From Azolla caroliniana (lineage: Eukaryota > Plantae > Polypodiophyta): a stretch of 64,000 nt of DNA. Shown one piece after another: positions 1 to 64,000 of this stretch. The notes below the pieces were generated by a model. That model was not told the origin of the DNA, did not search any database, and was given only the letters and a program-made list of their open reading frames with translations. Position 1 is the stretch's first letter; each line of letters begins with the position of its first letter. The stretch covers positions 18,786,001-18,850,000 of the forward strand of contig JBHGNT010000005.1 of assembly GCA_043228905.1 (NCBI GenBank), read 5' to 3'. Both the position numbers and the translations under genes were made by a program.

Positions 1-30
1 TGTGTGTATGTATGTATGTATGTATGTATA
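1..30. repeat. (TG)/(TATG)n microsatellite upstream of the putative AAPT 5' UTR
   Basis: Sequence reads tgtgtgtatgtatgtatgtatgtatgtata. Confidence 0.9.
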
Positions 31-28031: not shown

Positions 28032-28096
28032 GGCTCCTCTCTATCTCTCTCATGAAAAATGACCTAAATAAGAATCAGTTATAAACCCACATCTTC

Positions 28097-39349: not shown

Positions 39350-39881
39350 TATATAATCTCTTGAGAGTGAGAGAGGAGAGTCTAAGTCTCTACACAACAG
39401 GGAGAAAAACGAACGAGAGAGAGAGAGTAGGAAAAGCCTCTCCCTGAGAGGTATAAAATCTCAATACGGAGAGAGAAATCTTCTCTGCCAGAGACATGAA
39501 AACGTCAAGAGGGAGGACTCATCTTCTTCTCTCTGTCTCTACAAGAGAGATCTCAATCTTGAGGTTAAGACTCTCTCTCTCTCTCTCTACAAGATCAAAC
39601 AAAAAAAAAAGATCTAGCATTAGCAGGAAATCAGGTGCTGAATTCTGGCTTAGATAGGGGAAAGGGGGGGGGGGGAGGAGAAAAAACTGTACCTTGAGTG
39701 CTCTGCGGACCAGGAGGAAACCTGTTGGCTGCAATGAGTATGAAGAAGAGAGAACATCACTTACACGACGATGGCGACTGATTGGAAGCTTGGGAGCTTC
39801 TCCATAGCCAGGAGGCATGCAGAAGCCGGAAGCTACAGATCAAAACCTTGGGCTACACCAGAATTCCTGTGTATAAGCATG

Positions 39882-39972
39882 GTATGTATTGTATGTATTG
39901 TAATTTGTATGTATTGTATGTATGTATGTATGTATGTATGTATGTATGTATTGTATGTATGTATGTATGTAT
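39882..39972. repeat. (TATG)n microsatellite with TATTG variants between the MTPC4 upstream region and the first MULE
   Basis: Read directly. Confidence 0.95.
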
Positions 39973-42900
39973 CGTGACTAACTGCTACCGAATATTAAAG
40001 AGGGCAAGTGAGGGAATCGCGGAGAGGGACGGTGCAGGTCGCACCGCTGATGGCGCGTTCGATCTCCACCGTCCAAGATGGATAAAAAGTTGACAGCGTC
40101 TGTCACTAGGAGCTCAACTCTGTGAAAAGGAGCCCAACTCTTTGAAGCCTCTGTCACCAAGAGCCCGACTCTGTCAAAAGGAGCCCCGTTATCAGACAGC
40201 CTCTGTAAGCAGGAGCCCGACTCTATCAGAAGGAGCCCCGTTGTCTGACAACATCAGTTAGAAGGAGCCCGACTCTGTCAAAAGGAGCCCCGCTGTTTGA
40301 CAACCTCTATCATCAGGAGTGACTCAGGGAAGGAGCCCGAATTAAAAACAAATATCTAAAACTCCAAAAAAATGGTAAGTGTATGTAAAGAATCGGGTAT
40401 GATTCTTGTGTAGCGGAATAGGTGAGAGATGTGCGTTATGTGAGTGTAAGAGAAAGAGAGTGAGAGAGACAAGGAGTAAGACACAGAGAATACGCAAGGT
40501 GGGAGGAGAAAGACTCAACATTATACAAGGTGGGAGGAGGGTGCTTTATATAGTCACCCTCTCTCTTCATTAACTACAAGACTCATGGAGCATGGGGAAT
40601 GTGAAAGCTCATAAGTTATATGTCATAGAATATGATTCTATGACTCATACTAAATGTTAGAATACAAAGTGGTGACATAATGGTGACTCTTGACCGTTGG
40701 AGTGTCTATTCACTCTCAAGGTGAGTTCACACACTAGACCAAGTTGAGCCTGATTCTCAACACGCCCCCTCAAGCTCAAGTCGGGTCGATTTCAGACGGT
40801 ATCCGAAATCCGCTTCGACTCGCATTCTGGAGTTCGCGTCGACTCGCATTTATGCGGAGTTGCGGAATACATGCTCCAAGTTGCGTTGTGCGTAGTTGCG
40901 AAGTCTATGCTTCGGCTTGCGTCTTTCGTTGCAGCTTTGCGCGGTAGATCGGCTCTTCGCGGCTTCGTTGCGTGGTTGCGGAATCCACGCGCTATTGCGT
41001 AGTGTGCACGGGTTGCGGAATCCACGCGTTATTGCGTAGTGTCTTCAGTCCTCCCCCTCAAGCTTGGTAGGTCAGGGATCGTCAATCCGAGATCGGTCGT
41101 GAATTGCCATAGCTTGTCGGCTCCTACAGCTTTAGTGAAGATGTCGGTCGTTTGAAGATTTTGTGCTAATGTGTTGTAGGTCGACATTGCCAGCCAGAAC
41201 GCGCTCTCCAATGAAGTGATAGTGCACTTCGATCTGCTTTGTCCGCGTGTGGAACACCGGGTTCCGAGCCATATAGATACTGCTCATGTTGTCGTAGTAA
41301 AGGGAAGTCAGATCCTTGAGTATCCTTTTGAGCCATACGGCTTCACATGCAGCCACTGTCGCGCCCCTGTATTCCGCCTTTGTGCTCGAAAGAGCGACGG
41401 TTGGTTGCTTTTTGTTGCTCCAGGATATTGCTCCGCTGTCGAGGGAAAAAACAAATCCGAAGGTTGATCTTCTATCGGCTTTGTAGCCAACCAAATTGGG
41501 GTCTATGTACCCCTCGAGTCGTATTGGCATCACGGTCTTGTAGAGGATGCCGCAATCCATTGTGCTGCTCACGTATCGTAGAACTCGCTCAGCGCAATCC
41601 AAGTGAGTATCACGCGGTGTTTGCATGAATTGACTACGGAGACCGACCGGATAACTGAGATCGGGTCGTGTGATCGTGAGGTAGATGAGACTCCCGATGA
41701 GTTGCCGATACTGCTTCGGCTCACACGCTTTGGTGCCGGAGTTTGCATCTAGTTTGAGATTGCGATCGAGTGGGGTTGCCGCGGATTTGCACTCAGCCAT
41801 ATCGAACTTGTATTACAAGTTGAGGATGTAGTGCCGTTGAGAGATCATGATTCCGACCGAAGTCCGAATTACCTCAATGCCGATGAAGTAGTGGAGCTCC
41901 TTCATGTTCGTCATCTCGAACTTGTCGGAAAGGAGGGATTTGACCTTATTGATTTCGACGAGATGCTCACCTCCAATGACTAGGTCATCCACATATAAGA
42001 TGCTGACGATCGGACTTGCGGAATCACTTCGTATGTAGAGGGAGTTGTCCGATTTTGACATACGGAAGCCAATTTGATGAAGATATTGCGTTATCTTCGA
42101 ATGCCAAGCACGTGATGCTTGCTTGAGGCCGTAGAGTGGCTTCTTGAGTTGGCATACAACTTTTGGATGGGTGCTCGAGTTGAAGTCGGGTGGTTGTATC
42201 ATGTACACCTCCTCTTCTAATTCGCCTTGTAGAAAGGCGTTCTTGACGTCCATTTGATGGAGGTGCCACCCTTTCGCCGCGGCAAGCGCAATTATGGTCC
42301 GTACCGTCGTCATCTTTGCCACCGGGGCAAAGGTCTCCTCGTAGTCAACTCCGTGCGTTTGTGCGTAGCCTTTCGCTACGAGTCGCGCTTTGTAGCGGTT
42401 GACAGAACCGTCGATGTTGTACTTCACTTTGTAAATCCATCTGCATCCGATCTCCTTTTTGTGTGGTGAGGTGGGAATGAGATCCCACATCTCGTTCTTG
42501 CGTAGTGCCTGCATCTCCTCGTTCATGGCTTCGATCCATCGCGGATCCTTGGCTGCTTCGGAAAATGTTTATGGCTCGCATATTGTTGCCTCCTTCATCA
42601 TAAAGGCATAGTGATATGCCATGTAGTCGTTGTAGCTGAATCGGATGACCGGATTCTTTTTACGGGTGGAGCGACAGAGCTTTTCACTTGCAGAGATGAG
42701 GGCTTTCTTAGCTTTGATTGGTACATCGAAGCCGCCAAACTCACTGTCAAGTGAGTGAGTCGACTCATCATCGTCGAAGCAATCATCTTCGTATTCCGCC
42801 ATTTTCGCCTTGCCTTTGTCCATCTTCGGGTTAGGCCGTGATGTGCTTTGATCGCTCAAAGGCTCTTGTGGTCCGCTCAGTCGAGTCATGATCAGACTTT

Positions 42901-43977
42901 CTTCAAACATGCGCGTAAGGCTATCTTCATCCTCTATCTCTTGTTCGGCGGATTCTGGGTCAAGCGGAGTCGGAGTCGGAGTTATCTCTGGTGCGTACCA
43001 GGATGCAGACTCCTCGAAAATGACGTCTCGACTTACGCGAGATTTTCGAGTTGAGGGGTTGTAGCACTTGTACCCCTTTTGCTCCAATGAGTATCTTATG
43101 AGGATACATTTCTCCAACTTTGGGTCAAGCTTTTGACGCTTCTTGTCGGGGATGTGCACGTACGCTATTGCGCCGAATATCCGGGTGTGCGATAAGTCCA
43201 ACTTCTTTCCAAAGTATTTTTCGTGCGGAGTGACCTCGTGCACGCCGGATGTTGCGCACCGGTTCATTAGGTAGACGACCGTATTTGCAACTTCGGCCCA
43301 ATAAGACTTGGGCATATGCTTCTCGTTCATCATAGCCCGCGCTACTTCGAGGATGTGCCGATTTTTGTGCTCGGCTACTCCGTTTTGTTGCGGAGTGTGT
43401 CGGCAAGTGAATTCTCGCCGAATTCCTTCCTTTCGGAGATACGCCGTGAAATCGTCCGAGAAGTACTCCTTGCCGCCATCCGATCGAAGGCATCGTACAT
43501 GTCGGCCCGTGGCTTTCTCGACTTCATTCTTGAATTTTTGGAAGTGTCCGAACACTTTTCTCTTTTGCCGCATCGGGTAGATCCAAGTGTGCCAAGAGAA
43601 GTCGTCGATGAAGAGCACGTAATATCGGCATCCGCCGAATGTAGCCGTCTGCGCCAATCCCCATACGTCGGAATGGACTACGTCGAGTAGACCTTTGCTC
43701 ACGTTCTGCTCTTTCGGGAATGGGTGTTGGTGTTGCTTGCCGAATTGGCACGCTTCACATACACCTTCAATCTCCTTCTCTTTGAATGTCGGGAGTCCGA
43801 TGACGACTCCTTTCGATTTCATTGCTTTGAGTTTGTTGAGATTGATGTGGTTGATTCGCTTGTGCCATAGCTTTATGTCGGAGTTGGCTTTCGTGCTTTT
43901 TGCGAGCATGGCGCGAGAATTGAGAATGAACATCCGGCCCTCTTTTCTTATGCGCGCGATGATTCAACCCTCTTTTT

Positions 43978-44781
43978 TGTTGGGAGACAGGTCCCTCCGG
44001 ATGGGAAGGGTGAAGAACAGTGCCGATGAACAAACTCGGCCGAGGCCGAAACCGTATGAGGTGCAGACCCGGTATGAACCGGATGAGGAGTACCCGGCTA
44101 CGGAGAGCCGGATGGTGCAGACCCGGTATGAACCGGATGAGGAGTAGCCGGCTACGGAGAGCCGGATGGTGCAGACCCGGTATGAACCGGATGAGGAGTA
44201 CCCGGCTACGGAGAGCCGGATGGTGCAGACCCGGTATGAACCGGATGAGGAGTACCCGGCTACGGAGAGCCGGATGGTGCAGACCCGGTATGAACCGGAT
44301 GAGGAGTACCTGGCTACGGAGAACCGGATGAAGAGACATATTCATAAATATGTTTTCTGATAGTCCACCGAGGCTATATTTGTAAATAGCCGAAAAGTCA
44401 TATTAGTATAAATATGACTTAGGGCAAACTAGTAACTGTTGTTCTTTTCATTTTGTTTGTGCAAGAAGAAAAGAGAGCACGTAACAGTGTACAGAGAGTG
44501 AGAGAGAAAGAGGTCGTTGCCTCTGTTGTAACCGCCGCCTGTGGCGAAGATCGTGAGCACGAGGTCATTGCCTCAGTGAACTCACTGTTGTACATTCTTA
44601 CATAGTGACAGTTTGCAGCCTGTGGGCTGCCGTGGTTTTTCCCCTAGTTTGGGGTTTTCCACATAAACCTCCTGTGTATCTTCCTCTTCTTTGTGTCGTG
44701 TTTTATTTCCCGTTTTCTGTGTATCATTCTAAGCTCGGTTGTGGCCGAGCGTTGTGCATAAGGAGCGTTGAGTTCTTGTCA
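43978..44781 (+). mobile_element. Solo LTR nested in the Copia pol region
   Basis: TGTTGG...TGTCA ends; TSD TTTTT; removing it restores GCFIEKEG; homologous to 48500-49212. Confidence 0.9.
44061..44330 (+). repeat. Five copies of a 54-bp tandem repeat inside the solo LTR
   Basis: Unit GTGCAGACCCGGTATGAACCGGATGAGGAGTACCCGGCTACGGAGAGCCGGATG at 44061, 44115, 44169, 44223 and 44277. Confidence 0.95.
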
Positions 44782-46793
44782 TTTTTCGATGAAGCACCCT
44801 TCTTGGTTGAATCATACTTGCATCCCTTGCTAAACTATTTGGCCGACTGAGACCAAATTTTTCGTGATGGTGGGAACATGCAAGACATTTTTAATGTATG
44901 TTTGCTTACCTCTTTCGCCGAACGGAACATTGCCGATGTGCCGAATCGGGTGCGTAGTGTCATCTCCGGTTTCGACATAACCGGGTCGCTCCGGCTCTCG
45001 AAGTTCGAGAAACCATTCTTTATGAGATGTCATATGGTTTGAGGCTCCAAAGTCAACAAACCATACGTCCTTCGGATTGAGGGCACTTGTTCAGGTAGAG
45101 GCCGACATAGAGTTTGCTCTATGTTTCATCGTGAACATTCCGCCATGATCTTCATAGTCGGAGTTGTGCCTGTACATTCCGCTATGACCTTCGTAGTCGG
45201 AGTTGTGTGTGTAATTCATGAGTTGTCGACTTGTGGAAGCCGATTCGCGCTACTTCTTTCGGCACTCTTCTTCGTGGTGGCCGAGCTTTTTGCAATATCC
45301 GCATTCGGTTGCGTTTTGACGGCTCGGGCCGGAGTGGAAGCTCCCCCTTCTTGTGAAGGTTCCTCGTTGGCCTCCGTTTTGCGGGCGAACTTGGGAGTTA
45401 TTGTCGTAGGTCGGACCTCGTTCGCCTTGTCCTTGGCCGAATCGACCTCTTGCTCTTCCGCGTCCTCTTCCTCTGTTTGAGTGCGTGTAGAGCATGTGGT
45501 CTTCCGACTCATTGCTCCTTGTACGCATGTGGTTTTCTTTGACCAATAGCATTGATTGGAGCTCGAAGAAGGACGGAGATTTCTCCCGTGCTAGAACGAC
45601 GGTTCACATCGCACCGAACCGTGGTGCGAGGCCGCCGAGGCATATTTGCACCATCTCATCATCATCGATATTTACGCTTATTGAGCTGAGCGAATCACAA
45701 AGCTCCTTGATCTTCGAGGTGTATGTCGTGATGGACATGTCACTTTGTTGAATGTTGTTCAACTCTTGGTGGAGTTGAAGCCTTCTTGCGGTTGTGTTCG
45801 CTGCGAAAATCTTTCGTAAATTTTCCCATGCCTCCTTCGGCGCCTTGGCTTCGCGAATGTAGTTGAGCATGTGATCGTGAACACATGTCGCCAAGCAATA
45901 CATCACGCGGCTTTCAGCTTGCCCCCATGTCGCATATCCGAGAGCCGCTTCGGCGGGTCGGTCTTCGTGCTCTCCTTTGATGTAGCTCCAATAGCCTTGT
46001 CCGACAAGGTATTGATGCATCTTGTACTCCCAAGATGCGAAGTTGTTTCAATCCAACTTCTCGGTAGGGAGAGCGCTCCCCATTTGAGTATTCATTATGT
46101 CGATTCTTCTTCTTCTTCTTCTCTCTTCGAATGCAAGCTATGTAGCGAAGCTACGATAGCGATGAGCCGGTTCTTGGTCATCGGCGTAGAGCACAACACA
46201 CGATCACGATGAGGCGAATGGGCTAGATCGAGCTACCAAATCGCTCTAATACCATGTAAAGAATCAGGTATCATTCTTGTGTAGTTGAATAGGTGAGAGA
46301 TGTGCGTTATGTGAGTGTAAGAGAGAGAGAGTGAGAGAGACGAGGAGTAAGACACAGAGAATATGCAAGGTTAAGTATATTAACAAAGGAGAAAGACTCA
46401 ACATTATACAAGGTGGGAGGAGGGTGCTTTATATAGTCACCCTCTCTCTTCATTAACTACAAGACTCATGGAGCATGGGGAATGTGAAAGCTCATAAGTT
46501 ATGTGTCATAGGATATGATTCTATGACTCATACTAAATGTTAGAATACAAAGTGGTGACATAATGGTGACTCTTGACCGTTGGAGTGTCTATTCACTCTC
46601 AAGGTGAGTTCACACACTAGACCAAGTTGAGCTTGATTCTCAACAGTGTACAACAAATATTTGCCATGAAAATGATCATAAAATTTCTCAAAAGAACCTA
46701 AAGATTCAAATAACAAGTCTTACATAAAATATTAAAATGTCAAATGTTGACAACCCTAAAATGAAATATGAATATACACATTACATATTAAGA

Positions 46794-49700
46794 TTATGGC
46801 TCATGTCGGGATGATTGCAAGATGCAACCACAATTTTTACAACATGTAACATTCGAGTCCCTTGAAGTCAAGGTCAAACCATTTCAACACAAACACCGAA
46901 CCTTCTCATGGTCACATATTGGCAATCACCTCTTAGCCCGACTTGCACCTCTTTGTTGTTTTCCAGAGTGGGATTTGGAAGTGTTTTGGGAGTTGCCAAT
47001 AAGTTCTTGCGAGATGTCTATTGTTGCACTTCTTTTGGCACCAATTTGTTGGTTGCGACTTATTGATCTGCCATCTTCTTCATTGGTTGATTTTGGTGCA
47101 CCAATGCGATACACCTTCTCAACCACATCTTCCAGTGTTTGTATACCTTCGACAATAGTTCCACGGTCGAAGGTTCCTAACCCTTGCTCAAGACATTGAA
47201 GTGCTTTCATGACCGTGTGTATTTTGGACTTGAATGATTCAATCTCGGATGTTGTGGGGTTTGTCTCCTCGACTTGTTCTACCTCTGCCTCCACTTCTAT
47301 TTCTGTATTATGGTCCATTAGCATTTGGGTCACGTGATCTATAAAAGGCAACGAGCCACATAAATGTGGCATATGCCTCTCAATAATCACTCGGATACCG
47401 AGTAAATGCTTAAATTTACTCGCAATGTCTTGGCAATCACAATATGAGCATTGGAGTGAGACATTATACCATAGAGTGGGAGTCGTCATGCTCAAGATTC
47501 TAAATCAACATCGGGCCTCGTCGACAATTTCCATTATGGAAGTATCGTCGACATACCTTTCCAATATTCTCTCCGCTTCTTTAAGTCAGGACCTTTGATC
47601 CCTACAATTCGCACGGGGTGCAAACCGACCACTCTCACACATTTCTTGTTGTTGCTTGTACCACTCTATTACTGTTCCTCCTATGCAAGTGCTAGTTTCA
47701 TTGTCCTTGATTAAGACATGAAGAAGGTCGGTAATTGATCAGTTTATTCTTCCTCTCAAGACAGTATACTTGATAAACTACCAATGTCTTTCCACAATAT
47801 TGGTAGTGTCAACGTGTCCATAGTTGAACATTCTACCAAATCTTGGGCCAGAGTTTCCTACACACATGTCAAACCACACCATCCTCCTTCTATATATTGC
47901 CAAACACCGGGCTTGTCTGCATATTCTACCTTTAACTCCTCACAAATCGCATTGAATGCGGATTCAATAATGCATTGCATCAGTTGTCACATTCGTTGAT
48001 AAAGATGGCTTCTCTCAGTTGCACTTACTTTTGGCAACAAGTTGTCCACCCATGACTTTTTGGCGTGAAACTAACACAACAAAAGTCAACAATGTGTTTG
48101 CGACTGTTGCCCATTTACAACAATCCAAGATTGACGGTCTGTTGCAACCACATTAGTTATGGCATTATATGATGTCCAACATTTATCAATCACTATCGCA
48201 TTTGGCCTCACCGTGGGCATCCTTGCGAATATGGCTCTCAAACAAGTTTCTAATGCGACTTGCTCATGGTTTGACCCCTTATCATAACTACAAAGCATGT
48301 ACCATAACGGGATCCCAATTCCCATGGCGTTGGGGGCAACATCTGCATATAATGGTAGCCCGAATTGGTTTGTTTGAAATGTCGAGTCAATTGCCCAAGA
48401 GTTGTTTAGGGTTAACCACTCACACATTTCCAACATCCATTGATCTTGAAGTATCAAGATAAATGGTTGTCTAGCGGGAGATCCTGGTTCACCAGGTAGT
48501 GTTAGGAAACAAGTCCCTCCGGATGGGAAACCGGATCTCGAGTACCCGGCTACAGAAGACCCGGTGAGAACCGGAAGAGGAGTACCCGGCTACGGAAGAC
48601 CCGGTGAGAACTGGACGAGGAGTACCCAGCTATGGAAGACCCGGTGAGAACCGGATGAGGAGTACCCAGCAAGAGCCGGATGGTGAAGACCCAGTGAGAA
48701 CCGAATGAGGAATACCCGACAAGAGCCGGATGGTGAAGGCCCGGTGAGAAGTGCTCACCGGATGAAGGGACATATTCGTAAATATGTTTCTTGAGAGGCC
48801 ATCGGGGCTATATTTGTAAATAGCCGAAAAGTCATATTAGTATAAATATGACTTAGGGCAAACTTAGGATAGGGTGTTGTTGTTATTCTTGTTGGCGTAA
48901 GATTAGAGAGCGCGTAAGATTAGAGAGAGAGGAAGAGGTCGTTGCCTCTGTTGTTACCGCCGCTTGTGGTGAAGATCGTGAGCGCGAGGTCGTTGCCTCC
49001 GTGAGCTCACTGTTGTAACCATTGTGATATAGTGATAGTTTGCAGTCTATGGGTTGCCGTGGTTTTTTTCCCTAGTGTGGGTTTTCCACGTAAACATCCT
49101 GTGTACTCTTCTCTTCACTGTGTTGTGCGTTCCATTCCCCGTTTTTTCTGTGTATGATTCTAAGCTCGGTTGTGGCCGAGCGTTGCGCATAGGGAGTGTG
49201 TAGTTCCTGTTAGGTAGGTAGGGTTGAACATGAGCCACTTTCCCAAGATCTCGGAGTGCATAAGCATCTTGCATCATCAAAGCCCAATCAACCTTAGTCA
49301 TGGCACTTCCGATTTTTAACCTATTTGCCATGTTATGGACCTCCTTTGGCATCATAAAGAACCGATAACTAACAAGCTGTAATGGACTAGCCTTGGACTT
49401 ATGATATGCTTCCTTACACATGCCTTGTACTGGCAAATGGTACACATATGACCTACTACATGGTACATGACCACTATGAGGTCCATATATTGAAATGGTA
49501 AGTGTCTCATTGTCAACAACGTCATTCATTCTAACGTACACATGGAATGTGCACCCACATCGGGGTGTGCACATGCGTCGTCGAGTGGAATTAGATGCAA
49601 ATCGAGATGTCCCAGCACGATGGCAACTATACCTAGTCACACGCATACCCTTGTTGACTCCTTTCCTTAAATGTGTGTGGTACTTGGTTTGCAAATCTGT

Positions 49701-50360
49701 GAGCACATCATCTAACTAGTGGGTTTCTACCTTGATCACTTCTATGGGTAGGGTCTTGTTATATTTGGCCATGCTTGATCCCAAACCTTCTATCGGGTCG
49801 ACCATCGATACCATTTGGCAACCACAACTTGTAATGAGTGCTTTTACGTACTCCGGTGTGATGCTATAATCACGTACATCAGTCGCATAAACTAGCTTTA
49901 ACTCTTTAAGAGTCTTTGGAAACGTGTGATGGGATGTGCCACCATGTGACGCTAATACTACTTCCCTCCATTTCTCAACGTATACTACTTGAAGATTAGG
50001 TGATGCTTTAAGGTAAATTGCACTCTCATTCTCGAGTATGAGATGACTCTTCATGTGCCTCCATGCATGAAGTGAAAGTGTTGCACCCCTTGCGACATCA
50101 CGTAATGCTTCCAATGTTACCTTAACTTGTCCTAATAAATCTTTAACCATCAAATTATATGTACCTCTTGAAAATGCAAAATACATGGGGGAACAATACA
50201 TGAAGGGATTCACCGCCTCATCCTCATGATCGGAATCTGATGACTCAAAAGGAATATCCAGTTCGTCCTTAGATACAAACGATGCATTGGACGACCATGA
50301 CGTATCCTCCGATTCATATTCCGACATGGCAAAGACACCATGATGCATTGTGCTCATCAT
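46794..50360 (-). pseudogene. MULE transposase (H2C2-like, WRKY/FAR1-like, MULE DDE, SWIM), disrupted
   Basis: VLASHGGTSHH...ITSCGCQ; YSCHRAG...RCGC...HSGH; WAIDSTFQTNQFGLPLY; IVIDK; TTNIVERHW; YNVSLQCSYCDCQDIASKFKHL. Interrupted by stops, deletions and a solo LTR. Confidence 0.85.
48500..49212 (+). mobile_element. Solo LTR, same family as 43978-44781, inserted in the transposase
   Basis: TGTTAG...TGTTA (CA>TA); TSD GGTAG, with the empty site in copy 2 at 56696-56700; internal 40-bp x3 and 50-bp x2 repeats. Confidence 0.9.
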
Positions 50361-51287
50361 AACAAATACAATATGATCAAGAATGCCAGTGATTGAGGTG
50401 AATGAAGTGAATGTGAGAGATTATGCGAATGAATGAAATGAATTAATTCAAATAATTCACTTGAATGGAGTGGATTATTTCAGCTCTTCTTCAATGATTT
50501 AGTTCGAGAATGTTTAGGGCTATTAGTGAATGATCGAGAAAGCGGGTGAATGAAATTAGTGCGAGTGATTAATAGACCGTTAAGGAAGGGAAGGAATTCA
50601 ACCCTTAGTGAATGAGTCTACCTCTTAGTGCATGCTATTGAATTTGGTGAATCAATTTAGTGTAGTCGTTAGTATGATCGTTGAAACACCATCATTATAC
50701 GTAGTTGGGCACTTGACTATTAATGAGTCGGGCTCCCTTTTTGAAATGAGTTGGGCTCCTCATTAATCAGTCGGGCTCCCTCTTTTGTAACGAGTCGGGC
50801 TCCTCATTAATCAGTTGGGCTCCCTCCTATAACATTGTTGTACATTGCTTTGTCTACCTTTTCCATTATTGACTAGTATTGCGTTATTGTACATTGCTTT
50901 TGAATAAGATTCACATTGAGTCACACACTAACCAGAATGAGATTCAAATTGAGTCATATACAACCAGAATGAGATTCAAATAATAAGACTCACAACCAGA
51001 ATGTTCATCAAATTGAGTCATATACAATCAAAATGAGATTCAAATATTGATTTGATATTACAAAATGAGATTAAGATAGAGTCCACATTGAGTCATATAC
51101 AACCAAAATGAGATTAAAATATTGATATTATATTACAAAATGAGATTCAAATAGAGTCCACATTGAGTCATATGCAACCAAAATGAGATTCAAATATTGA
51201 TTTGATATTACAAAAAAGTTGGCAATCCGCATGAGATAGTACATCGAAATCATATGTTTGATGTTAGAAAGTACAACATGCTAGTGA

Positions 51288-53322: not shown

Positions 53323-54019
53323 CTGTACAAAACACATGCCATCTTCAAAAACCACCAATTTGTGCAACCCACCCAAGCAGTACATGATTGAAGGTTCAAG
53401 TCTTTTTTCTTCTTACTCTGTTTCATATTAATATGGATTCCATATTATCTTATCAAGATTCTAAATATAATTCCATATTATCTTATCAAGATTTTTACTC
53501 TGGCATGCAGTGGAGGTCAATAATAATATGGATTCCAGCTACGAGGAAAATATGATTTCAAACACAAAACTCGAAGGTATAACCTCCACAAAGTCTGGTG
53601 ATACATACCTCTAGATAGCAGGACAACAAGTGCTCGCGGACAATAGGACAACAGGTGGTGCGCCTCGCTGAAGATGCCTAAACCCTAAACCTCTAGCTTC
53701 CTATTTGAAAACAGGCAAAAATGACAAGTATATGGGTTTTTATACTCATCACAAACTAATGAGTCGGGCTCCTTTTCACAGAGTGGGATCCTTTTCACAA
53801 TGAGTCGGGCTCCTTCTTTAGTGAGACAGGCTCCCCAAAAAGAGAACTTTTGATGGCGTGCTTTTTCGCGCTTTTTCTTCATCCACATTGGACAATGCAG
53901 ATTGCACGCGCCCTCATCTAGCAACTTGCACTGTCCCTCTCCGGGATTCCCTCACTTTCCCTCATAAATATTTGGTAGTAGTTAGACACGTCGATGTATG
54001 TATTGTATGTATGTATGTG

Positions 54020-54154
54020 CGGCTTGTGACTAACTACTACCAAAAATTTAAGAGGGCAAGTGAGGGAATCACAGGCGCGGACAGTGCAGGTCGCACCGTT
54101 GATGGCGCGTGTGATCTCCACCGTCCAATGTGGATAAAAAGCTGACAAACGACT
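54020..54154. repeat. Orphan copy of the MULE left terminus (135 bp) between two TATG tracts
   Basis: CGGCTTGTGACTAACTACTACC...TGACAAACGACT recurs 158 bp later as the start of copy 2, with about 10 differences. Confidence 0.9.
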
Positions 54155-54853
54155 GTATGTATGTATGTATGTGCGTGCGGCTCGTGACTAACTACTACCA
54201 AAAATTTAAGAGGGCAAGTGAGGGAATCACGGGCGCGGACATTGCGGGTTGCACCATTGATGGCGCGTGTGAACTCCACCATCCAATGTCGATAAAAAGT
54301 TGACAAACAACTATCATGAGGAGCCCGACTCTGTCACAAGGAGCCCCGTTGCCTAACAACCTCTATTACCAGGACCCCGACTCTGTCACAAGGAACCCCG
54401 TTGCCTGATAGCCTTTGTCACCAAGAGCTTGACTCTGTTAAAAGGAGCCCCGTTGTCTACCAACCTTTGTCACCAGGAGCCCGACTTTGTCAAAAGGAGC
54501 CCCGTTGTCTACCAACCTCTATCACCAGGAGCCCGACTGACTCAAGGCAGGAGCTTGACTTAGATACAAACATCAAAAACTCCAAAAAATTGTAAGTGTA
54601 CAACAAATATTTGCCGTGAAAATGATAGATAAAATTACTCAAACAAACCCAAACTTCCAATTGCTCTCAAAACCTAAATTTTAAAACTCAAAAATCACAC
54701 AAACTTATATCTCCAACCTTCAAGTAACAAATCAACTTAAAGATTCAAATAAAACGTCTTACATAAAAGATTAGAACATCATATTGATAATGGGAATAAT
54801 CCAAGCCTTGGAACCCTAAAATGAAATATGAATACACACATTACATATAACAA

Positions 54854-57800
54854 TTATGGCTCATGTCCTGATGATGGCAAAATGCAACCACAATTTTTAC
54901 AACATGTAACAATCGAGTCTCTTGAAGTCAAGGTAAAGCCAACACAACGCAAACACTAAACCTTTTCATGGTCACATATTGGCAATCGCCTCCTAGCATG
55001 ACTTGCACCTCTTTGTAGATTTCCGATGTGGGATTTAGAAGTGTTTAGGGAGCTGCCAATAAGTTCTTGTGAGATGTCTATTGTTGCGCTTCTTTTGGCA
55101 CCGAGTTGTTAGTTAATACTTATTGATCTGCCATCTTCTTCATTGGTTGATCTTGGTGCACCAATATGATACACATTCTCATTCATATCTTCCAATGTTT
55201 GTATACATTCCAAAATAGTTGCACAGTCAAAGGTTCCTAACCATTGCGTGAAACATTGAAGTGCTTCCTCAGCCGTTTGTATTTTAGACTTGAATGATTC
55301 AATCTCTGATGTTGTGGGGTTTGTCTCCCCCACTCGTTCTACCTCTGTCTCCACTTCTATTTCTGTATTATGGTCCATTCGCATTTGGGTCGTGTGATCT
55401 ATAAAAGGCAATGAGCCACATAAATTTGGCATATGCCTCTCAATAATCATTCGGATACCGAGTAAAGGCTTACATTTACTCGCAATGTCTTGGCAATCAC
55501 AATATGAGCATTGGAGTGCGACATTATACCATAGAGTGGTAGTCATCATGCTCAAGATTCTAAACCAATATCAGGCCTCGTCCACAATATGCATTGTTGA
55601 AGTATCATTGACATACCTTTCCAATATTCTCTCGGCCTCTTTAAGTCGGAACCTTTGATACCTACAATTTGCACGAGGTGCAAATCGACCACTCTCACAT
55701 ATTTCTTGTCGTTGCTTGTACCACTCTACGACCATTCCTCCGATGCAAGTGCCAGTTTCACTATCCCCGATTAAGACATGCACAAGGTCAGTAATTGATC
55801 TGTTTATTCTTCCTCTCAAGTGCAAATCGACCATTCTCACATATTTCTTGTCGTTGCTTGTACCACTCTACGACCATTCCCCCGATGCAAGTGCCAATTT
55901 CACTATCCCCGATTAAGACATGCACAAGGACAATAATTGATCGGTTTATTCTTCCTCTCAAGGCACTATATTTGATAAACTGCCAATGTGTTTCCACAAT
56001 ATTGGTAGTATCAACATGTTTGTGGTTGAACATTCTACCAAACTTGGGCCAGAGTTTCCTCCACACACATGTCAAACCACACCATCCTCCTTCTATATAT
56101 TGCCAAACACCGGGCTTGTCTGCATATTCTACCTTTAACTCCTCACAAATCGCATTGAATGCGAATTCAGTAATGCATTGCATCAGTTGTCACATTGTTG
56201 ATAAAGATGGCTTCTCTCAATTGCACTTACTTTTGGCAACAAGTTGTCCACCCATGATTTTTTGGTGTGAAACTGACACAACAAAGTTGACAATGCGTTT
56301 GCGATCGTTGTCCATTTACAACAATCCAAGGTTGACAGTCAATTGCAACCACATTAGTTATGGCATTATATGATGTCCAACATTTATCAATCACTATCGC
56401 ATTTGGCCTCACCGTGGGCATCCTTGCGAATATGGCTCTCAAACAAGTTTCTAATGCGACTTGCTCGTGGTTTGACTCCTTATCAGAACTGCAAAGCATG
56501 TACCATAACGGGATCCCAATTCCCATGGCATTAGGGGCAACAGTTGCATATAATGGCAACCCGAATTGGTTTGTTTGAAATGTCGAGTCGATTGCCCAAG
56601 AGTTGTTTAGGGTCAACCGCTCACACATTTCCAACATCCATTGATCTTGAAGTATCAAGATAAATGGTTGTCTAGCGGGAGATCCTGGTTCACCAGGTAG
56701 GTAGGGTTGAACATGAGCCACTTTCCCAAGATCTCGGAGTGCATAGGCATCTTGCATCATCAAAGCCCAATCAACCTTAGTCATGGCACTTCCAATTTTT
56801 AACCTATTTGCCATGTTATGGACCTCCTTTGGTATCATAAAGAACTGATAGCTAACAAGATCTAATGAACTAGCCTTGGAATTATGATATGCTTCCTTAC
56901 GCATGCTCATTCGTGCCACATGCCTTGCACACCCAACATCAAATAGGCCATCTTTGCAACAACTTATGACATTGACGTGTGTTGGCAAATGGTACACAAC
57001 CGACCTACTACATGGTACATGACCATTATGAGGTCCATATATTGAAATGGTAAGTGTCTCATTGTCAACACCGTCATCCATTCTAACGTCCACATGCAAT
57101 GTACACCCACATCGGGGTGTGCACCTGCGTTGTCAAGTGGAATTAGGCGCAAGTCGAAATGTTCCAGCACGATGACAACTATACCTAGTCACACGCATAC
57201 CCTTCTCGACACCTTTCCTGAAGTGTGTATGATACTTGATTTGCAAATATTTGAGTGCAACATCTAGCTGGTGGGTTTCTACCTTGATCACTTCTATGGG
57301 TAGGGTCTTGTTATATTTGGCCATGCTTGATCCCAAACCTTCTATTGGGTCAACCTTCAATACCATTTGGCAACCACAATTTGTACTGAGTGCTTTTACG
57401 TACTCCGGTGCGATGCCATAACACGTACATCAGTCACGTAAACTAGCTTTAACTCTTTAAGAGTCTTTGGAAACATGTGATGGGATGTGTCACCATGTGA
57501 CGTTAATACTACTTCCCTCCATTTCTTGACGTATAATATTTGAAGATTAGGTGATGCTTTAAGGTAAATTGCACTCTCATTCCCGAGTATGAGATGACTC
57601 TTCATGCGCCTCCATACATGAAGTGAAAGAGGTGCACCCCTTGCGACATCACGTAATGCTTCCAATGTTACCTTAACTTTTCCCAATAAATCTTTAACCA
57701 TTAAATCATACGCAGCTCTTGAGAATGCAAAATACCTTGGGGAACAATACATGAAGGGATTCACCGCCTCATCCTCATGATCAAAGTTAGATGACTCAAA

Positions 57801-57911
57801 AGGCATCTCCAATTCATCCTCAGATACAAACGATGCATTGGACAACCATGATGTATCCTTCGATTCATATTCCGACATGGCAAAGACACCATGATGCATT
57901 GTGCTCTCCAT
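54854..57911 (-). pseudogene. MULE transposase of copy 2, frameshifted
   Basis: ORFs 57396-57911, 57133-57366, 56227-57099, 55788-56183, 55571-55840 and 55109-55555 parallel copy 1; 142-bp tandem duplication at 55679-55961. Confidence 0.85.
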
Positions 57912-58069
57912 AGATGGTTGTGGTCTATTACTACGGTGATTGAAGTGAGCGAATACAATGTGATCGAGAATGCTAGTGATTAAGGTGAATGAAGTGAATG
58001 TGAGTGCTTATGCCAATGAATGAAGGAATGAATTCAAATGAATGCCAATTATTGTATTTCAAATGAAAA

Positions 58070-60492
58070 CACGTTCGCGTTCACAAGTGGAAGGATCGTG
58101 CATTCCATTTATAGATTCCTTTTATAATCTCGCGATTTTAGACAATTTTCAAAAACTTGATACACCAGTATCACATGTTTTTAATAGCATGTAAAATTTG
58201 CTAATTTTTTGAGATTTAACAAGTTTCAAAATGATAATTTCTAAAATTGAATAGTTTTTTAGTAAATGTTTAAATGTTGATGGTTTGCATATATGAAATG
58301 TAGTTAACTTAAAGAAATCACAATGGTTAACTCAAGGCACAAGTTAAGATTAATGTTTTCACCATCTTGATGAGATTAAGATTACATCTTTTGTTAGACT
58401 TGAAAACGTTTTAAGTATAAGAGGTATCATTGCAATCCTTAATGTCATCATCTATAAATTTAGTGCTCATTAACATCCATAAATTCACAACTCAAGAAAT
58501 GTAGACAATATTCATAAACAATTTTGATAAATCCACAACTCCCAAAATGTAGATGATATTCATAAACTGTCAAACTTTAGATGTGAACATTAATATATCA
58601 ATTTGAACATATCACACAGTTACTAGGGTATCTACAATGTTATCCTCTTCTTCCTTTTGAGAATTCCCCTACAAAATTTGTGAAGAAAATGGCATTTGCG
58701 AAGTTCAATTACCATCAATACAATTATTAATGGTTTTTTGCTAATCAATGAAGCCTATGTTCACCATAAGGTATCTTGTTGTGCAACATACATCTTTGCA
58801 ATATCGATATGCATCTTTTTCTCTTGTAAAAACATAGATTTCAGTATCATTTGAGTTCATGTTTAAAAAACCTCTTTTATTTGAAAAACAAGAATTTTTT
58901 TAAACATGAACTCGATATGTTGTATCAAGTTGATGTAAAAAACCGAGTTTTGATCATAAATCCATACAATGTATTGAATTCATGTTTAAAGTTTTTTTTA
59001 CTAGATTTAAAAAATAATAATAATAATAATAAGTTGAGCTTGAGTTCATATAAAAACCAGATTTTTTATCACAATTCAATACAATGTATCGAGTTCATGT
59101 TTAAAGTATATTTTTCTAATTTTTTCCAATTTTTTTGATTTGTTTTTATTTTTTTCAATTTTATATATGGAAAAAAATAATTTTAAACATGAATTCAATA
59201 CATTGTATTGAATTGTGATGAAAAATCTGGTTTTTATATGAACTCAAGCTCAACTTATTATTATTAATTTTTTTAAAATCTAGTAAAAAAAACTTTAAAC
59301 ATGAATTCAGTACATTTTATGGAATTATGATAAACTCGATACAACATATCAAGTTCATGTTTAAAAATCTTCTTGTTTTTCAAATAAAAGAGGTTTTTTA
59401 AACATGAACTTGAATCGTACTAAAATATTTGTTTTTAGAAGAGAAAAAGATGCATATCGATAGTGCAAAGAAGTATGTTGCATAACAAGATACCTTATGG
59501 TGAACATGCGCGTCATTGAATAACAAAAAACCATTAATAATTGTGTTGATGGTAATTGAACCTTGCAAATGTCATTTACATGGTCCATAAAGTATTCTCG
59601 TGGTTCTCAATGACCACTTCAAGCACTCAATGTTGATCTTCATAGTTTGGTTCATCTACAACAGAGAAACATTTATGTGGAACAAAGGATGACAACACGA
59701 GCATAACTCAGGTGACACGGACACTTGCAAGAACTCAAGGTGGGGATATTAATAACTACACATGTAGATGGCCATGAGCTATGGTACCAATTCTACATTG
59801 GTAAAGTTTTGGACGTGATGATCCATTAAACCTTTGTAATACATCTATCATTGACATTAATTAGGTGTATATCATTGTGTATGACTTTACACTGACAAAA
59901 GTTGGATGTTTAAGGACAACAACGATATATATAATAAAAGAGATATTACCAAGTCTAGAAGATATCTCATAGTGAAGGTGAAGAAGATTTACTACACACA
60001 ATTTGGAGACACCATTTGGTGAAGACAATGATTTGATTGGTACATTTGAAAATGAGGAGGAAGAGTCACAATTGTATATTATCTATAGTAGTGATTCTCA
60101 TGAAAAGAATGATGATATTTATGCAAATAACTCCCAAATGTATTAGTTGTGCAACTATGTGTAACAAATTTACACAACATTTTATCGAATGAAATAAAAA
60201 CGTTCATTGTTTTGAAATCCTCTCCTTTTGATTGCTTTAAGATCTAAAAACTTATTAGTAACTGTCATTTTTCTTAAAAATACACAAAGTTACTTTTCGT
60301 ATCTGACCAAAATTTGGTATTTTTCAATTTTACCAAATGGTGAAATTTTCAACTTTTTCATCAAGTTTTAGAGAACATGTGATACCAATATCAAGGTGTT
60401 TTGTGAAATGGTAAAAAAAACCCCAAAATCAAACGGAATATTCCTTATCCTTCCACTTGTGCGCAATCCTTCCACTTGTGAACGCGGACATG
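58070..60492. mobile_element. Non-autonomous TIR element inserted between the two genes of MULE copy 2
   Basis: ~32-bp TIR CACGTTCGCGTTCACAAGTGGAAGGATCGTGC / GCGCAATCCTTCCACTTGTGAACGCGGACATG; segment absent from copy 1; TSD not resolved. Confidence 0.7.
58687..59577. repeat. Long inverted repeat (foldback), ~430-bp arms with a ~50-bp spacer
   Basis: Left arm AAATGGCATTTGCGAAGTTCAATTACCATCAA... is the reverse complement of the right arm ...TTGATGGTAATTGAACCTTGCAAATGTCATTT, with scattered mismatches throughout. Confidence 0.92.
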
Positions 60493-61520
60493 TTTGAATT
60501 CAATGTGATCAATAATGCACATGAATGAAGTGGATGATTTCAATTTCTTCAATTATTTAGTTTGAGAATAATTTCAGCACTTTGAGAATGATTTCAGCTC
60601 TTACTGAATGATCGAGAATGCCAACTGTTTGCGAGTGATTGAATCTATGGTTTGATTAATCACTACGGTGAATGAAATCAATGTGAGTGATTAATAGACT
60701 GTGAATGAAGTGAATGATTTTAACTCTTAGTGAATGAGTTCACCTCTTAGTGCATGCTAGTGACTTTGGTGAATCAATTTAGTGTGATCGTTAATATGAT
60801 CGTTGCAACGCCATCATTTCACATAGTTGGGCACCTGCTTATTAATGAGTCGGGCTCCCTCCTTTGATATAAGTCGGACTCCTCATTAATCAGTCGGGCT
60901 CCCTCCTTTGATATGAGTTGGGCTCCTCATTAATCAATAGGGCTCCCTCCGTTGATATGAGTTGGGCTCCTTACTGGAAAAATTGGAATGTTGAAACAGT
61001 TAAGCTTCCAAGTGATATATACCATTAATTGATTTATTAGGATTTCGAACATAATCTTCAACTCCTCGTATAACATTATTGTAGATTAATTTGTGTGCCT
61101 TAATGCAGTGTTCATAGAGCTTATCTTCTTCATTATTGACTTACTAGGGCGTATGCAACACTAGCAGAGCATGATTTCAGCTCTTTGAGAATGATTTCAG
61201 CACTAGGAGAGCATCTGCTCCCCCACATTAATATCATAAATTGATAAAAAAGCTCATCTAAGAAGACCCGCAACCAAGAAACATGCTTTTACTAAAGCAT
61301 TGCATACACTGTTTATATAGGGTTTACAAAATATTTATTTGATATTACAAAATTAACCATATTGATATGGCCAAGAATATACAAAAAGTGCCTGACTTGA
61401 TTCCAAAATACAAAAAAAGTTGGCAACCTTGGTTCCAGAATATACAAAAAAAGATGGCAACTGCATTAGATAGTACATCGAGATCATATATTTGATGTTA
61501 CAAATTACAACTCCGAATGA

Positions 61521-63009
61521 TTAAAATAACCCTAAGCCCAGAGTCCTTTGTGCCCATTTTGCCATGATTTTCCGAAGGAGCTCCACGTCTTCGAATCCAA
61601 ACCATTGCTCCTTACCCTACACCACAAGATGCCATCAACCCTAAGCCATTACAAAAACAAATGCTCATATTCAATCCTAAGGGATACTTACAAAATAATT
61701 AGACTCAAATCCTTGAATGAACTCCTCAACCAACATCCGAATCGTTTGCATCACGTAATACCCACGATCTGTCCCATGAGGTTGGGTCGGGATATGGAAT
61801 ACATGGAACCGTTCATCATTGATGATGCAATGGTCGTGCGTGGCACTAGAGATATGTCATACAACCAAATCACTCAATGTCTTCATGTCGACAGTTGGAT
61901 GATTATTTAGTGGATCACAAAAAACAATTGGGCTCCTCACCTTCTTGGCATCGAGACTTGCAGGAGTCTGCTGCATCTTCATCCAAAGCATCCAATGCCC
62001 TGAGTGCAATATTGGAATGAAGACATATTCCTATTCCAATGCCCTGAGTATGTTTTCTACCTTATCACTTTGCATTGATAGTTGTACCCATAATGGATCA
62101 CCAATATGAAACCGCTTGTTGATGCCAAGGGGTAGCGAGTACTCCATCCATAAGTGGAAGAGGGTCATTGTCCACGTGGATGCCATCTCCCCTACAATGC
62201 ACAACGAACATAGTTCTACCTCAGTAAAAAAGACGGCTAGATCTAGTCTTCGGCAAGCCACCTGAAACCTGTTTATTAGGCCAGATTAGCAAGTATGAAA
62301 AAACATGGAGTTAACTCTTGATCTCATGCCCCCACCATAACGACATACCTAGTGAACTTATTTCTTGTTGTGTTATCCCATGTTTTCGTGATTGTCCCGG
62401 GACCAACAAAGACAATCCCAATGTCCTCACCCTCAGCTATGTCGGATGATGTAATGTCTTGCAATTTGGCTGGGTCCACTTTTTTCTTGCGAATTTGGAT
62501 TTTCGGCCTCCTTGGTTGTCGGATTATCGATTTTGATAGTTGTTCCTAACCACCATCGGCCACTACATTTCCCACATCGTTTGGCATGGGAAACCCATGA
62601 TTCTTATTGTGAAATTCATACATAAGATTCAAACATATTCATTCACACTAGATTTACACTCACATAAGATGCACACATAATCATTTACCATACTTACATA
62701 AGATTCAGATGCAGTCGAAATCTTCAACTTCAACAAATGGCCCACGTTGTGTATGGGGTTTGTATCCATGTTCGAGTCATTCATAGGCTTTTCAGTAATG
62801 ATGTTTTCACTATCCATATCGTTGGATTTGGGGCACCTAGCACCCTTTCTTACAAAAACCCTAAACCATCATTCAAGTTAGCACACAAACACCACTATGT
62901 ATACACAATATATAGTTGAGAAATGATTCAGGCCATACCTCCCTTCATAGGGTATTGTTTCACCCCAATCCGCATCAAAGTCTATAAAGGTCTTGGACTG
63001 ACTAGCCAT
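61521..63009 (-). pseudogene. Ulp1-protease accessory gene of MULE copy 2, zinc-finger segment deleted
   Basis: Colinear with 51288-53322 (FIPILHSGHW and DPL retained); about 560 bp missing at the 62730 junction. Confidence 0.75.
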
Positions 63010-63640
63010 CTATACAAACCACGTGCCATTTCAATAACCACTAATATGTCCATTGCATTAAAGTTCGAATATGGAACCATGTGATCAAATGTAAATGAAA
63101 AGAAACCCTAGAAACGATTTAAAAAATAAAAATAACCATGAAAATACATACCTATTATCGCCTTTGTTTTGCGGATCGAATGTAGGTGGTTGGGAAGTGC
63201 TCATTGGTAGAAAGTGGTGCTCCTCTTGGATTTTGGCAGAAAGTGGTGCACCTCTCTGATTTTGGTGGAAAGTGGTGCTCCTCTCTGATTTTCCCTCCAA
63301 ATACCTTAAAACTCTCTTTTCAAAACAGTTTCAAAATGAGTGATTCAGGGTTTTTATAGTCAGTGCTCATTAATAATGACCGGGGTTCCTAGCCCGACTC
63401 TTGATTAATGAGCGTGGCTCCTTTTGAAAGAGTCGGGCTCCTAGTTACAAAGGTTGTCAAACATCGGGGCTCCTAGTCAGGCTCCCTAGTAAGTGACGAT
63501 TTCTTCGCGCGTTTTTTTTATCCACATCGGATGGTGCAAATCGCACATGCCCTCGATTGAGTGACCTACATCGTCCCTCTCCGCGATTCCCTCACTTGCC
63601 CTCTTCAGTTTTTGGAGGTATTTAGACACGTCGGTACGTG

Positions 63641-64000
63641 CGACGTGTCTATTATGACACAAATCATTAATAGGGTTGGGGAGGGAATCACGGCCCCTGG
63701 ACGGTGCAGGTCGCTCGAAGCATGACGCGTGCAATCTACACCGTCCGATTTGGATAATAAAAAAACGCGCGACGAAAAATGTTGTAAGAGGTCACCCAAC
63801 CCTATCAGAGGTTGCCCAAAATTACCTATTGTGGTCACCCAACCTACATATTTTGGTTTCCCAACCTACCTATTGTGGTTGCCCAACCTCTATAATATAT
63901 GTGGTTGCCCAACTTGTCATTTCAGTTTGGTCACCCAACCGACTTTAAATGTGGTTGCCCAACCTATCATTTAAGTTTGCTCACCCAACCGAGTTTCAAT
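63641..64000 (+). mobile_element. Terminus of a third, related MULE subfamily, apparently tail-to-tail with copy 2; runs off the window
   Basis: Starts CGACGTGTCTA (inverse of the copy 2 right end); TIR core GAGGGAATCAC...GGACGGTGCAGGTCGC...; different subterminal motif GGT(TG/CA)CCCAACC repeated about 8 times. Confidence 0.75.

What the first reader, a model, noticed from the sequence alone, without database searches (positions are those of the whole stretch)
39882..64000. Tandem array of two-gene MULE-like transposons whose ends all abut (TATG)n or related RY-alternating DNA: candidate microsatellite-targeted family
Seen: copy 1 (39973-53993), an orphan left end (54020-54154), copy 2 (54178-63633) and a third related terminus (63641 onward) are packed together. 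They are separated only by short alternating purine-pyrimidine spacers: (TATG)n, ATGTATGTATTGTATGTATGTATGTG, GTATGTATGTATGTATGTGCGTG and GTACGTG. No conventional unique 8-11-bp MULE TSD is visible. Established: most MULEs show little target sequence specificity, while microsatellite-targeting plant MITEs (Micron/MiM type, in (TA)n) are known. Inference: this is an autonomous-type family that targets TAYG repeats (TATG possibly from CpG decay of TACG) and piles up at one site.
Basis: partly seen in the sequence, partly recalled or inferred. Interest (0 to 1): 0.85.

Follow-up and report, generated by a model that had tools for sequence, protein, structure and literature searches.

The report
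Fern transposons that target TATG microsatellites
In a fern, a high-copy family of Mutator-type jumping genes sits mostly in or beside TATG-repeat DNA and stacks up there end to end, likely because its enzyme is drawn to these repeats, a four-letter variant of a habit already known for TA repeats in flowering plants.

Summary
Real, and mostly of a known kind. The array exists: two decayed MULEs (Pfam MULE transposase plus a Ulp1-type protease gene), a 132-bp orphan left end and the end of a sister family, parted only by TATG-type spacers. The targeting holds outside the window: of 33 non-redundant termini from 34 public contigs, 22 have TATG-rich flanks against 22 of 1328 background windows; a purine-pyrimidine run lies within 15 nt of 24 of 33 (background 30 of 793), in both orientations. 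Two first-reader claims fail: with the left ends set at 54022/54180, 9-bp TSDs appear (copy 2, 8 of 9; one exact unique pair), and TACG is not enriched. Microsatellite-targeted, array-forming MULEs are published (MuTAnT, SaTar/AgS-MULE, Ac-mMITE). What differs: a tetranucleotide target, a fern host, a transposase clade whose named relatives are fern, lycophyte, algal and amphioxus proteins, an intact 959-aa transposase, and TSDs that overlap a neighbour's end. No empty site was seen, and the two copies share a nonsense change. New variant of a known kind; interest 0.45.

The parts
39882..39971 (.). (GTAT)n microsatellite with GTATT interruptions; last 9 nt (39963-39971, ATGTATGTA) = left TSD candidate of copy 1
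   Evidence: the unique flank runs into this repeat in runs X1 and X2
39972..53993 (-). MULE copy 1 (first 2 bases of the left TIR lost); TIRs about 39972-40090 and 53878-53993; 52-bp subterminal repeats 40091-40319
40384..46645 (-). Copia-type LTR retrotransposon nested in copy 1, 5-bp TSD GTGTA, LTRs identical at 367 of 392 columns (12 gap columns)
46815..50348 (-). decayed MULE transposase gene of copy 1 (10 stops, frameshift, 713-bp insertion 48500-49212 with 5-bp TSD GGTAG)
51437..52857 (-). second gene of copy 1: Cys/His-rich exon (52405-52857) and Ulp1-type (Peptidase_C48) protease domain (51491-52000), broken
   Evidence: PF02902, E 1e-5, above cut-off
53994..54021 (.). TATG-type spacer; first 9 nt ATGTATGTA = right TSD candidate of copy 1
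54022..54153 (+). orphan left end, 92% identical to the left end of copy 2 and 80% to that of copy 1; likely a local duplication of copy 2's end with its flank
   Evidence: (period 158)
54154..54179 (.). TATG spacer ending in the left TSD of copy 2 (54171-54179, GTGCGTGCG)
54180..63633 (-). MULE copy 2; TIRs about 54180-54298 and 63515-63633
54878..57899 (-). decayed MULE transposase gene of copy 2
58687..59577 (.). foldback (long inverted-repeat) insertion in copy 2
61640..62733 (-). remnant of the second (Ulp1-type) gene of copy 2
   Evidence: homologous to 51212-52497; motif seen in translation, not scanned with Pfam
63634..63642 (.). right TSD of copy 2 (GTACGTGCG): 7 nt of spacer plus the first 2 bases (CG) of the third element
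63641..64000 (+). terminus of a sister MULE family, cut by the window end; 76% identical over 456 nt to the terminus in L026, whose contig has the length (8457) recorded for transposase P0002

Best explanation
This is a stack of decayed Mutator-like DNA transposons from a high-copy fern family whose ends lie mostly in or within about 15 bases of (TATG)n repeats, likely because the transposase complex is drawn to these repeats and then inserts by ordinary cut-and-paste with a mostly 9-bp target duplication. Shown: MULE identity, two genes, flank enrichment in both orientations, 9-bp TSDs, mixed-family junctions. Inferred: the tract is there first and recruits the complex (by its sequence or by its alternating purine-pyrimidine structure); each insertion splits the tract and leaves targets on both sides, so later copies land beside, not inside, earlier ones, sometimes clipping 2-7 bases of a neighbour's end into the TSD. 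Inferred order here: third element first, then copy 2 at its very end, a local duplication of copy 2's left end, and copy 1 in the remaining tract.
For: Pfam MULE in both copies; intact relative P0001, 959 aa, with D435, D502, E634 and C539-x-x-H542 conserved in most of 15 aligned proteins; top five fold matches are the IS256-family transposase ISCth4. Flanks: 6 or more TATG-class 4-mers in 30 nt at 22 of 33 termini vs 22 of 1328 window bins (p 5e-28) and 38 of 1063 distal bins of the same loci; 11 of 16 in low-coverage contigs alone. A 10-nt alternating run abuts 16 of 33 (background 1 of 793) and lies within 15 nt of 24 of 33 (30 of 793). The same terminus type is flanked by TATG in some loci and CATA in others, so the repeat is not part of the element. 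TSDs: copy 2 8 of 9; L017/L009 exact non-repetitive 9-mer, the only such match among all pairs of 45 termini, lying 13 nt from one TATG tract and 108 nt from another. L016 (first 7 nt of another terminus in its flank) and L026 (2-nt spacer) fit a 9-bp TSD that overlaps a neighbour's end (other end not held, so inferred). Loose-end consensus before 54180 in runs X1 (7 contigs) and X4 (12 contigs) is TA/CATA-alternating.
Against: No empty site was seen, so 'tract first' is not shown; one search skipped the repeat and bridged nothing. 8 of 33 termini have no alternating run within 30 nt (two of these are the L026 head-to-head pair). The 34 contigs are short-read metagenome assemblies of the same or a related species, about half collapsed (coverage above 5), and were picked by one TIR motif. 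The base next to the end is a pyrimidine in 22 of 31 GC/CG-type ends, where a uniform 9-bp TSD in alternating DNA predicts half, so some TSDs are probably 8 or 10 bp or the join is more complex. Copies 1 and 2 share a nonsense change at residue 568 and a few other derived changes, so they are not fully independent in ancestry. No experiment ties any protein domain to targeting.
Confidence: 0.78

Rival explanations
1. Insertion has only a weak, short preference and the TATG tracts grow afterwards (slippage during gap repair or from the TSD), or copies in repeats are simply retained longer.
For: Tract expansion after insertion is reported for TAFT and MuTAnT (PMC5907723 discussion; PMC4486113 Table 1). 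No empty site was available here.
Against: L017/L009 has a non-repetitive TSD yet lies between two TATG tracts; tracts are compound and interrupted, and the GTATT variant occurs on both sides of copy 1; retention alone would need about a 40-fold bias.
Confidence: 0.1
2. The SaTar model: excised elements circularise with repeat filler and integrate into tracts by homologous recombination, not by transposase strand transfer.
For: Proposed for SaTars because flanks often did not fit a TSD and were of varied repeat types. The excess of pyrimidines at the joins here does not fit one TSD length.
Against: 9-bp TSDs at copy 2 and at L017/L009, one of them overlapping a neighbour's terminus, are the mark of strand transfer; both tract orientations occur for one end type.
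Confidence: 0.07
3. The array is a local segmental duplication or an assembly artefact of one element.
For: Shared nonsense change at residue 568 and shared K439Q and V486A in both copies; the orphan end does look like a local duplication; no contig spans the junctions.
Against: Each window terminus is closer to a terminus in another contig (66-69 of 72) than copy 1's are to copy 2's (57 of 72); the copies are 91% alike with private insertions; homology stops at the termini; copy 2 has its own TSD; like junctions occur in four other contigs. Mosaic ancestry or gene conversion explains the shared changes better.
Confidence: 0.05

Closest known systems
SaTar / AgS-MULE and ArS-MULE elements (guayule, rice, sorghum, citrus; PMC5907723)
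   Same: MULEs flanked by microsatellite in most copies, a minority with ordinary TSDs, non-nested mixed-family arrays that include defective autonomous elements; flanking repeats noted as variable and often non-TA.
   Different: SaTars are mostly 0.4-1.7-kb non-autonomous elements in (TA)n with 10-bp TSDs; here the members are about 7.7-8.5-kb two-gene elements, the dominant repeat is TATG, TSDs read 9 bp, and the host is a fern. Their Fig. 4 and supplements, which I did not see, may show TATG-like flanks.
MuTAnT / AutoMuTAnT (Medicago truncatula; PMC4486113)
   Same: Autonomous MULE with microsatellite targeting, 9-nt TSD at non-repeat sites, frequent loss of the outermost terminal bases (as at copy 1).
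   Different: Targets perfect (TA)n (204 of 218 copies), foldback TIRs starting GGGG, one Jittery-like ORF of five exons; here a single-exon transposase plus a Ulp1-type gene, termini GC.../CG..., TATG target. Direct sequence comparison with AutoMuTAnT was not run.
Ac-mMITEs (pineapple; PMC8449440), TAFT (maize) and Micron (rice), the last two known to me only as cited
   Same: Mutator-derived or MITE families in microsatellites, clustered by adjacent insertion; 9/10-bp TSDs in Ac-mMITEs.
   Different: Dinucleotide targets; no autonomous partner found for Ac-mMITEs.
ULP1-carrying MULEs (KAONASHI-MULE, grapevine Mutavine families; passages of PMC2528002)
   Same: MULE transposase plus a Ulp1-type cysteine protease domain.
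   Different: KI-MULE is non-TIR with ULP in reverse orientation; here both genes are on one strand and TIRs are present. No microsatellite targeting is mentioned in that paper (0 occurrences of the word).

Membership tests
Mutator/MULE superfamily | MULE-type DDE transposase with CxxH motif | tested here: met
   PF10551 above cut-off in both copies and P0001; D435/D502/E634 and C539/H542 conserved; ISCth4 top fold match
Mutator/MULE superfamily | long imperfect TIRs | tested here: met
   about 115 bp, 75-86% complementary
Mutator/MULE superfamily | 8-11-bp TSD | tested here: met
   9 bp at copy 2 (8 of 9), copy 1 (9 of 9, in repeat) and L017/L009 (9 of 9, unique); junction parity hints at other lengths too
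SaTar-type behaviour | most termini flanked by microsatellite, a minority by ordinary TSDs | tested here: met
   22 of 33 TATG-rich flanks; published range 62-95% of elements
SaTar-type behaviour | non-nested mixed-family arrays | tested here: met
   window array plus L012, L014, L025, L026; overlaps of only 2-7 bases with a neighbour's end; nested insertions seen are of other classes
SaTar-type behaviour | (TA)n as the main target | tested here: not met
   TATG-class 4-mers 343 of 891 (background 1841 of 35856), TA-class 36 of 891 (657 of 35856)
MuTAnT family | Jittery-like transposase and MuTAnT TIRs | tested here: inconclusive
   No direct comparison possible; named full-length relatives are fern, lycophyte, amphioxus and green-algal proteins (20 of the 150 listed profile hits were looked up), FAR1 match only E 0.06; termini differ from the GGGG ends described
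Repbase/Dfam fern or Selaginella MuDR families | sequence match to a deposited consensus with a noted target | not testable with these tools
   neither library is held

The most novel reading that the evidence does not exclude
A deep-branching MULE clade of ferns and lycophytes evolved microsatellite targeting independently of the angiosperm TA-targeting MULEs: its transposase reads (TATG)n, or alternating purine-pyrimidine structure, through an extra N-terminal domain (residues about 42-180, integrase-H2C2-like by weak hits) and is tethered there, inserting in or a few bases beside the tract. With an intact single-exon transposase in hand, this would be the first microsatellite-targeting DNA transposon whose targeting domain can be swapped and tested, and it would settle the transposase-versus-recombination question left open for SaTars.
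Probability: 0.2. Interest if true: 0.72.

Novelty: new variant of a known kind. Interest (0 to 1): 0.45.

Why it matters
It extends microsatellite targeting by MULEs from dinucleotide repeats in flowering plants to a tetranucleotide repeat in a fern and to a distant transposase clade, which suggests the safe-haven strategy arose more than once. The readable 9-bp TSDs in and beside tracts favour ordinary strand transfer over the recombination model proposed for SaTars. An intact, intronless 959-aa transposase (P0001) and three relatives at 70-75% identity (P0002-P0004) give material for a direct test of how a DNA transposon finds a microsatellite. In practice it warns that TATG markers in this fern often sit at transposon ends.

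Tried and rejected
Genome-wide flank count: no assembly held; replaced by one scan of metagenome contigs. Fetching the far end of L026 failed, record not held. Empty-site and junction-bridging test by laying contigs on 39600-40120: the tool skipped the repeat 39903-39979, nothing bridged, X4 and X6 lacked the unique flank; no conclusion. Table 5c (joints 54172 to 53994) was not used, as it may reflect microsatellite alone. Summed contig depth over the TIR core against the unique flank (54829 vs 28 in X1, 18228 vs 17 in X2) suggests some 10^3 ends but is no copy number. TACG-decay idea rejected. Repeat as part of the element rejected (both orientations). L016 first looked intact but lacks about 48 codons and has D502E, so only P0001 is called intact. 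One of the stops counted for copy 2 (559) lies in an out-of-frame stretch beside a 1-bp deletion. ESM Atlas hits for the Cys/His-rich exon were under 0.9 (BED-finger clusters), a lead only. Rows dropped before counts: 6 of 39 termini (L023, L029 x2, L031 duplicates; L021, L028 flanks under 7 nt). Two look-ups of earlier findings returned nothing. Paper searches for a fern or TATG-targeted MULE found none relevant; subscription papers and Repbase are outside the library.
Full report
Observation. The junctions are in the sequence as described. Repeat searches pair three left-type ends (39973, 54026, 54183) with two right-type ends (53990, 63630) as imperfect TIRs of about 115 bp and show that 46689-53366 and 54728-63052 are homologous at 86-95% in blocks. 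The host is a fern: the best named hits of a host GT47 gene (26196-28040) are Adiantum proteins at about 50%, and the best named hits of the transposase are Adiantum proteins at about 40%. No genome was held.

Anatomy. Both copies carry, on the minus strand, a MULE transposase (Pfam PF10551 above cut-off) and upstream of it a second gene with a Cys/His-rich exon and a Ulp1-type protease domain (PF02902, E 1e-5). Both are dead: copy 1 has 10 stops, a 713-bp insertion and a nested Copia with a GTGTA TSD; copy 2 has frameshifts, stops, a 142-bp duplication and a foldback insertion. An intact single-ORF relative exists (P0001, 959 aa; its DNA in L020 is 95% identical to copy 1 and 92% to copy 2), with D435, D502, E634 and a CxxH motif; its model (mean pLDDT 65) matches the IS256-family transposase ISCth4 best. 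Three further relatives at 70-75% identity occur in the same kind of source. A profile search gave 143 proteins at E 1e-30 or better; of 20 looked up, the named ones that cover the catalytic region are Adiantum, Selaginella, Diphasiastrum, Branchiostoma, Chlorella and Prasinocladus proteins, while the Medicago, Sesamum and Panicum hits match only the N-terminal third. That N-terminal part has weak integrase-H2C2 similarity, a lead only.

Test of targeting. One scan of metagenome contigs with a 24-base TIR motif returned 34 loci; a profile found 39 termini in them. They fix the ends as GCTCGTG... or CGACGTG.../CGTGGTG..., which moves the window's left ends to 54022 and 54180. After dropping 4 duplicates and 2 flanks under 7 nt, 33 remained. 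Six or more TATG-class 4-mers in the outer 30 nt were found at 22 of 33, against 22 of 1328 bins of window 1-39850 and 38 of 1063 distal bins of the same loci; among low-coverage contigs, which are least likely to be collapsed, 11 of 16. A perfectly alternating 10-nt run abuts 16 of 33 and lies within 15 nt of 24 of 33 (background 1 and 30 of 793). TATG-class words make up 343 of 891 flank 4-mers (background 5%), TG 66, TA 36, CG-containing alternating words 12; GATA and GA are not enriched. TACG is essentially absent. One end type is flanked by TATG in some loci and CATA in others, so the repeat is target, not element. Only 2 of 39 termini sat at a contig end, so loss of TA-flanked ends by contig breaks seems limited, though short-read bias against (TA)n cannot be excluded. 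Laying four public runs of three organism labels on 53700-54450 gave 421-746 contigs each and alternating loose-end consensus before 54180 in two of them.

TSDs. With the corrected ends copy 2 shows a 9-bp TSD (8 of 9) whose right copy includes the first two bases of the third element; copy 1 fits 9 bp inside the repeat. Among all pairs of 45 termini and lengths 7-12, one exact non-repetitive match appeared: the left end in L017 and the right end in L009 share a 9-mer, and that site lies 13 nt from one TATG tract and 108 nt from another. L016 and L026 fit a 9-bp TSD made of 2 repeat bases and 7 bases of a neighbour's end (the other ends are not held). Against a single rule, the base beside the end is a pyrimidine in 22 of 31 GC/CG-type ends, which suggests some 8- or 10-bp TSDs.

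Arrays. Two related termini face outward across 2-54 bp in L012, L014, L025 and L026, so stacking is not peculiar to this window. The third terminus matches that in L026 (76% over 456 nt), whose contig has the length recorded for P0002, so it is probably a sister family. The orphan end is 92% identical to copy 2's left end, shares its GTGCG flank and ends in a TGT microhomology with the repeat: most simply a local duplication.

Evidence against. No empty site was seen and no contig bridged the repeats. The contigs may come from a related species. Copies 1 and 2 share a TGC-to-TGA change at residue 568 and derived K439Q and V486A, although their ends are each closer to ends elsewhere (66-69 of 72) than to each other (57 of 72) and copy 2's private differences vary from 4 to 21 per 200 nt. 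I read this as mosaic ancestry or gene conversion, not plain duplication; it does not touch the 33 outside termini.

Mechanism. Most likely the transposase complex is recruited to TATG tracts and inserts by cut-and-paste in or just beside them; each event leaves tract on both sides and so renews the target. Identity, enrichment and TSDs are shown; recruitment, tract-first order and the role of any domain are inferred.

Comparison. MuTAnT (PMC4486113; abstract, results and discussion read) is an autonomous, Jittery-like MULE in (TA)n with 9-nt TSDs. SaTar and AgS-MULE elements (PMC5907723; abstract, first parts of results and discussion, passages) form non-nested mixed arrays, mostly in (TA)n but with variable repeats. 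Ac-mMITEs (PMC8449440; passages) cluster in dinucleotide repeats. ULP1-bearing MULEs are known (PMC2528002; passages). Dada (PMC3706591; passages) has 6-7-bp TSDs and RNA-gene targets and was set aside. Supplements were not read; those of PMC5907723 may show TATG-like flanks. Searches found no paper on a fern or TATG-targeted MULE; Repbase and Dfam could not be checked.

Verdict. A real microsatellite-targeted MULE group that works like SaTar/MuTAnT but with a tetranucleotide target, in a fern and in a distant transposase clade: new variant of a known kind, interest 0.45.

Noticed in passing
window 4091-4472 and 25792-26080: A (GATA)n tract abuts one arm of a 308-bp inverted repeat (81%) whose partner lies 21.6 kb away; possibly a second, unrelated TIR element with one end in a microsatellite. 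No P0001-like coding sequence lies between.
   Followed up: partly
window 1-29: The window begins inside a (TATG)n tract; another member of the family may lie just upstream.
   Followed up: no
window 43964-44780 and 48500-49212: Two related ~0.7-0.8-kb insertions (77%) with internal 40-54-bp tandem repeats, one in the Copia and one in the copy-1 transposase with a 5-bp TSD; perhaps solo LTRs or a small non-autonomous family.
   Followed up: partly
L033 1-882 (-): An RtcB-family ORF lies about 400 bp from a family terminus; chimeric assembly, or a gene of bacterial type in the fern.
   Followed up: no
L030 774-2851: A terminus in a TATG/TGCA tract lies about 170 bp before a PPR gene ORF, so insertions can sit in promoter regions.
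   Followed up: no
proteins P0081, P0106, P0123, P0079: Uncharacterised 480-650-aa proteins of Medicago, Sesamum, Panicum and Selaginella match only the N-terminal third of this transposase clade (E about 1e-36 to 1e-47); possible domesticated genes derived from it.
   Followed up: no
window 58687-59577: 0.9-kb foldback element with 248-nt arms at 90%, inserted between the two genes of copy 2.
   Followed up: no
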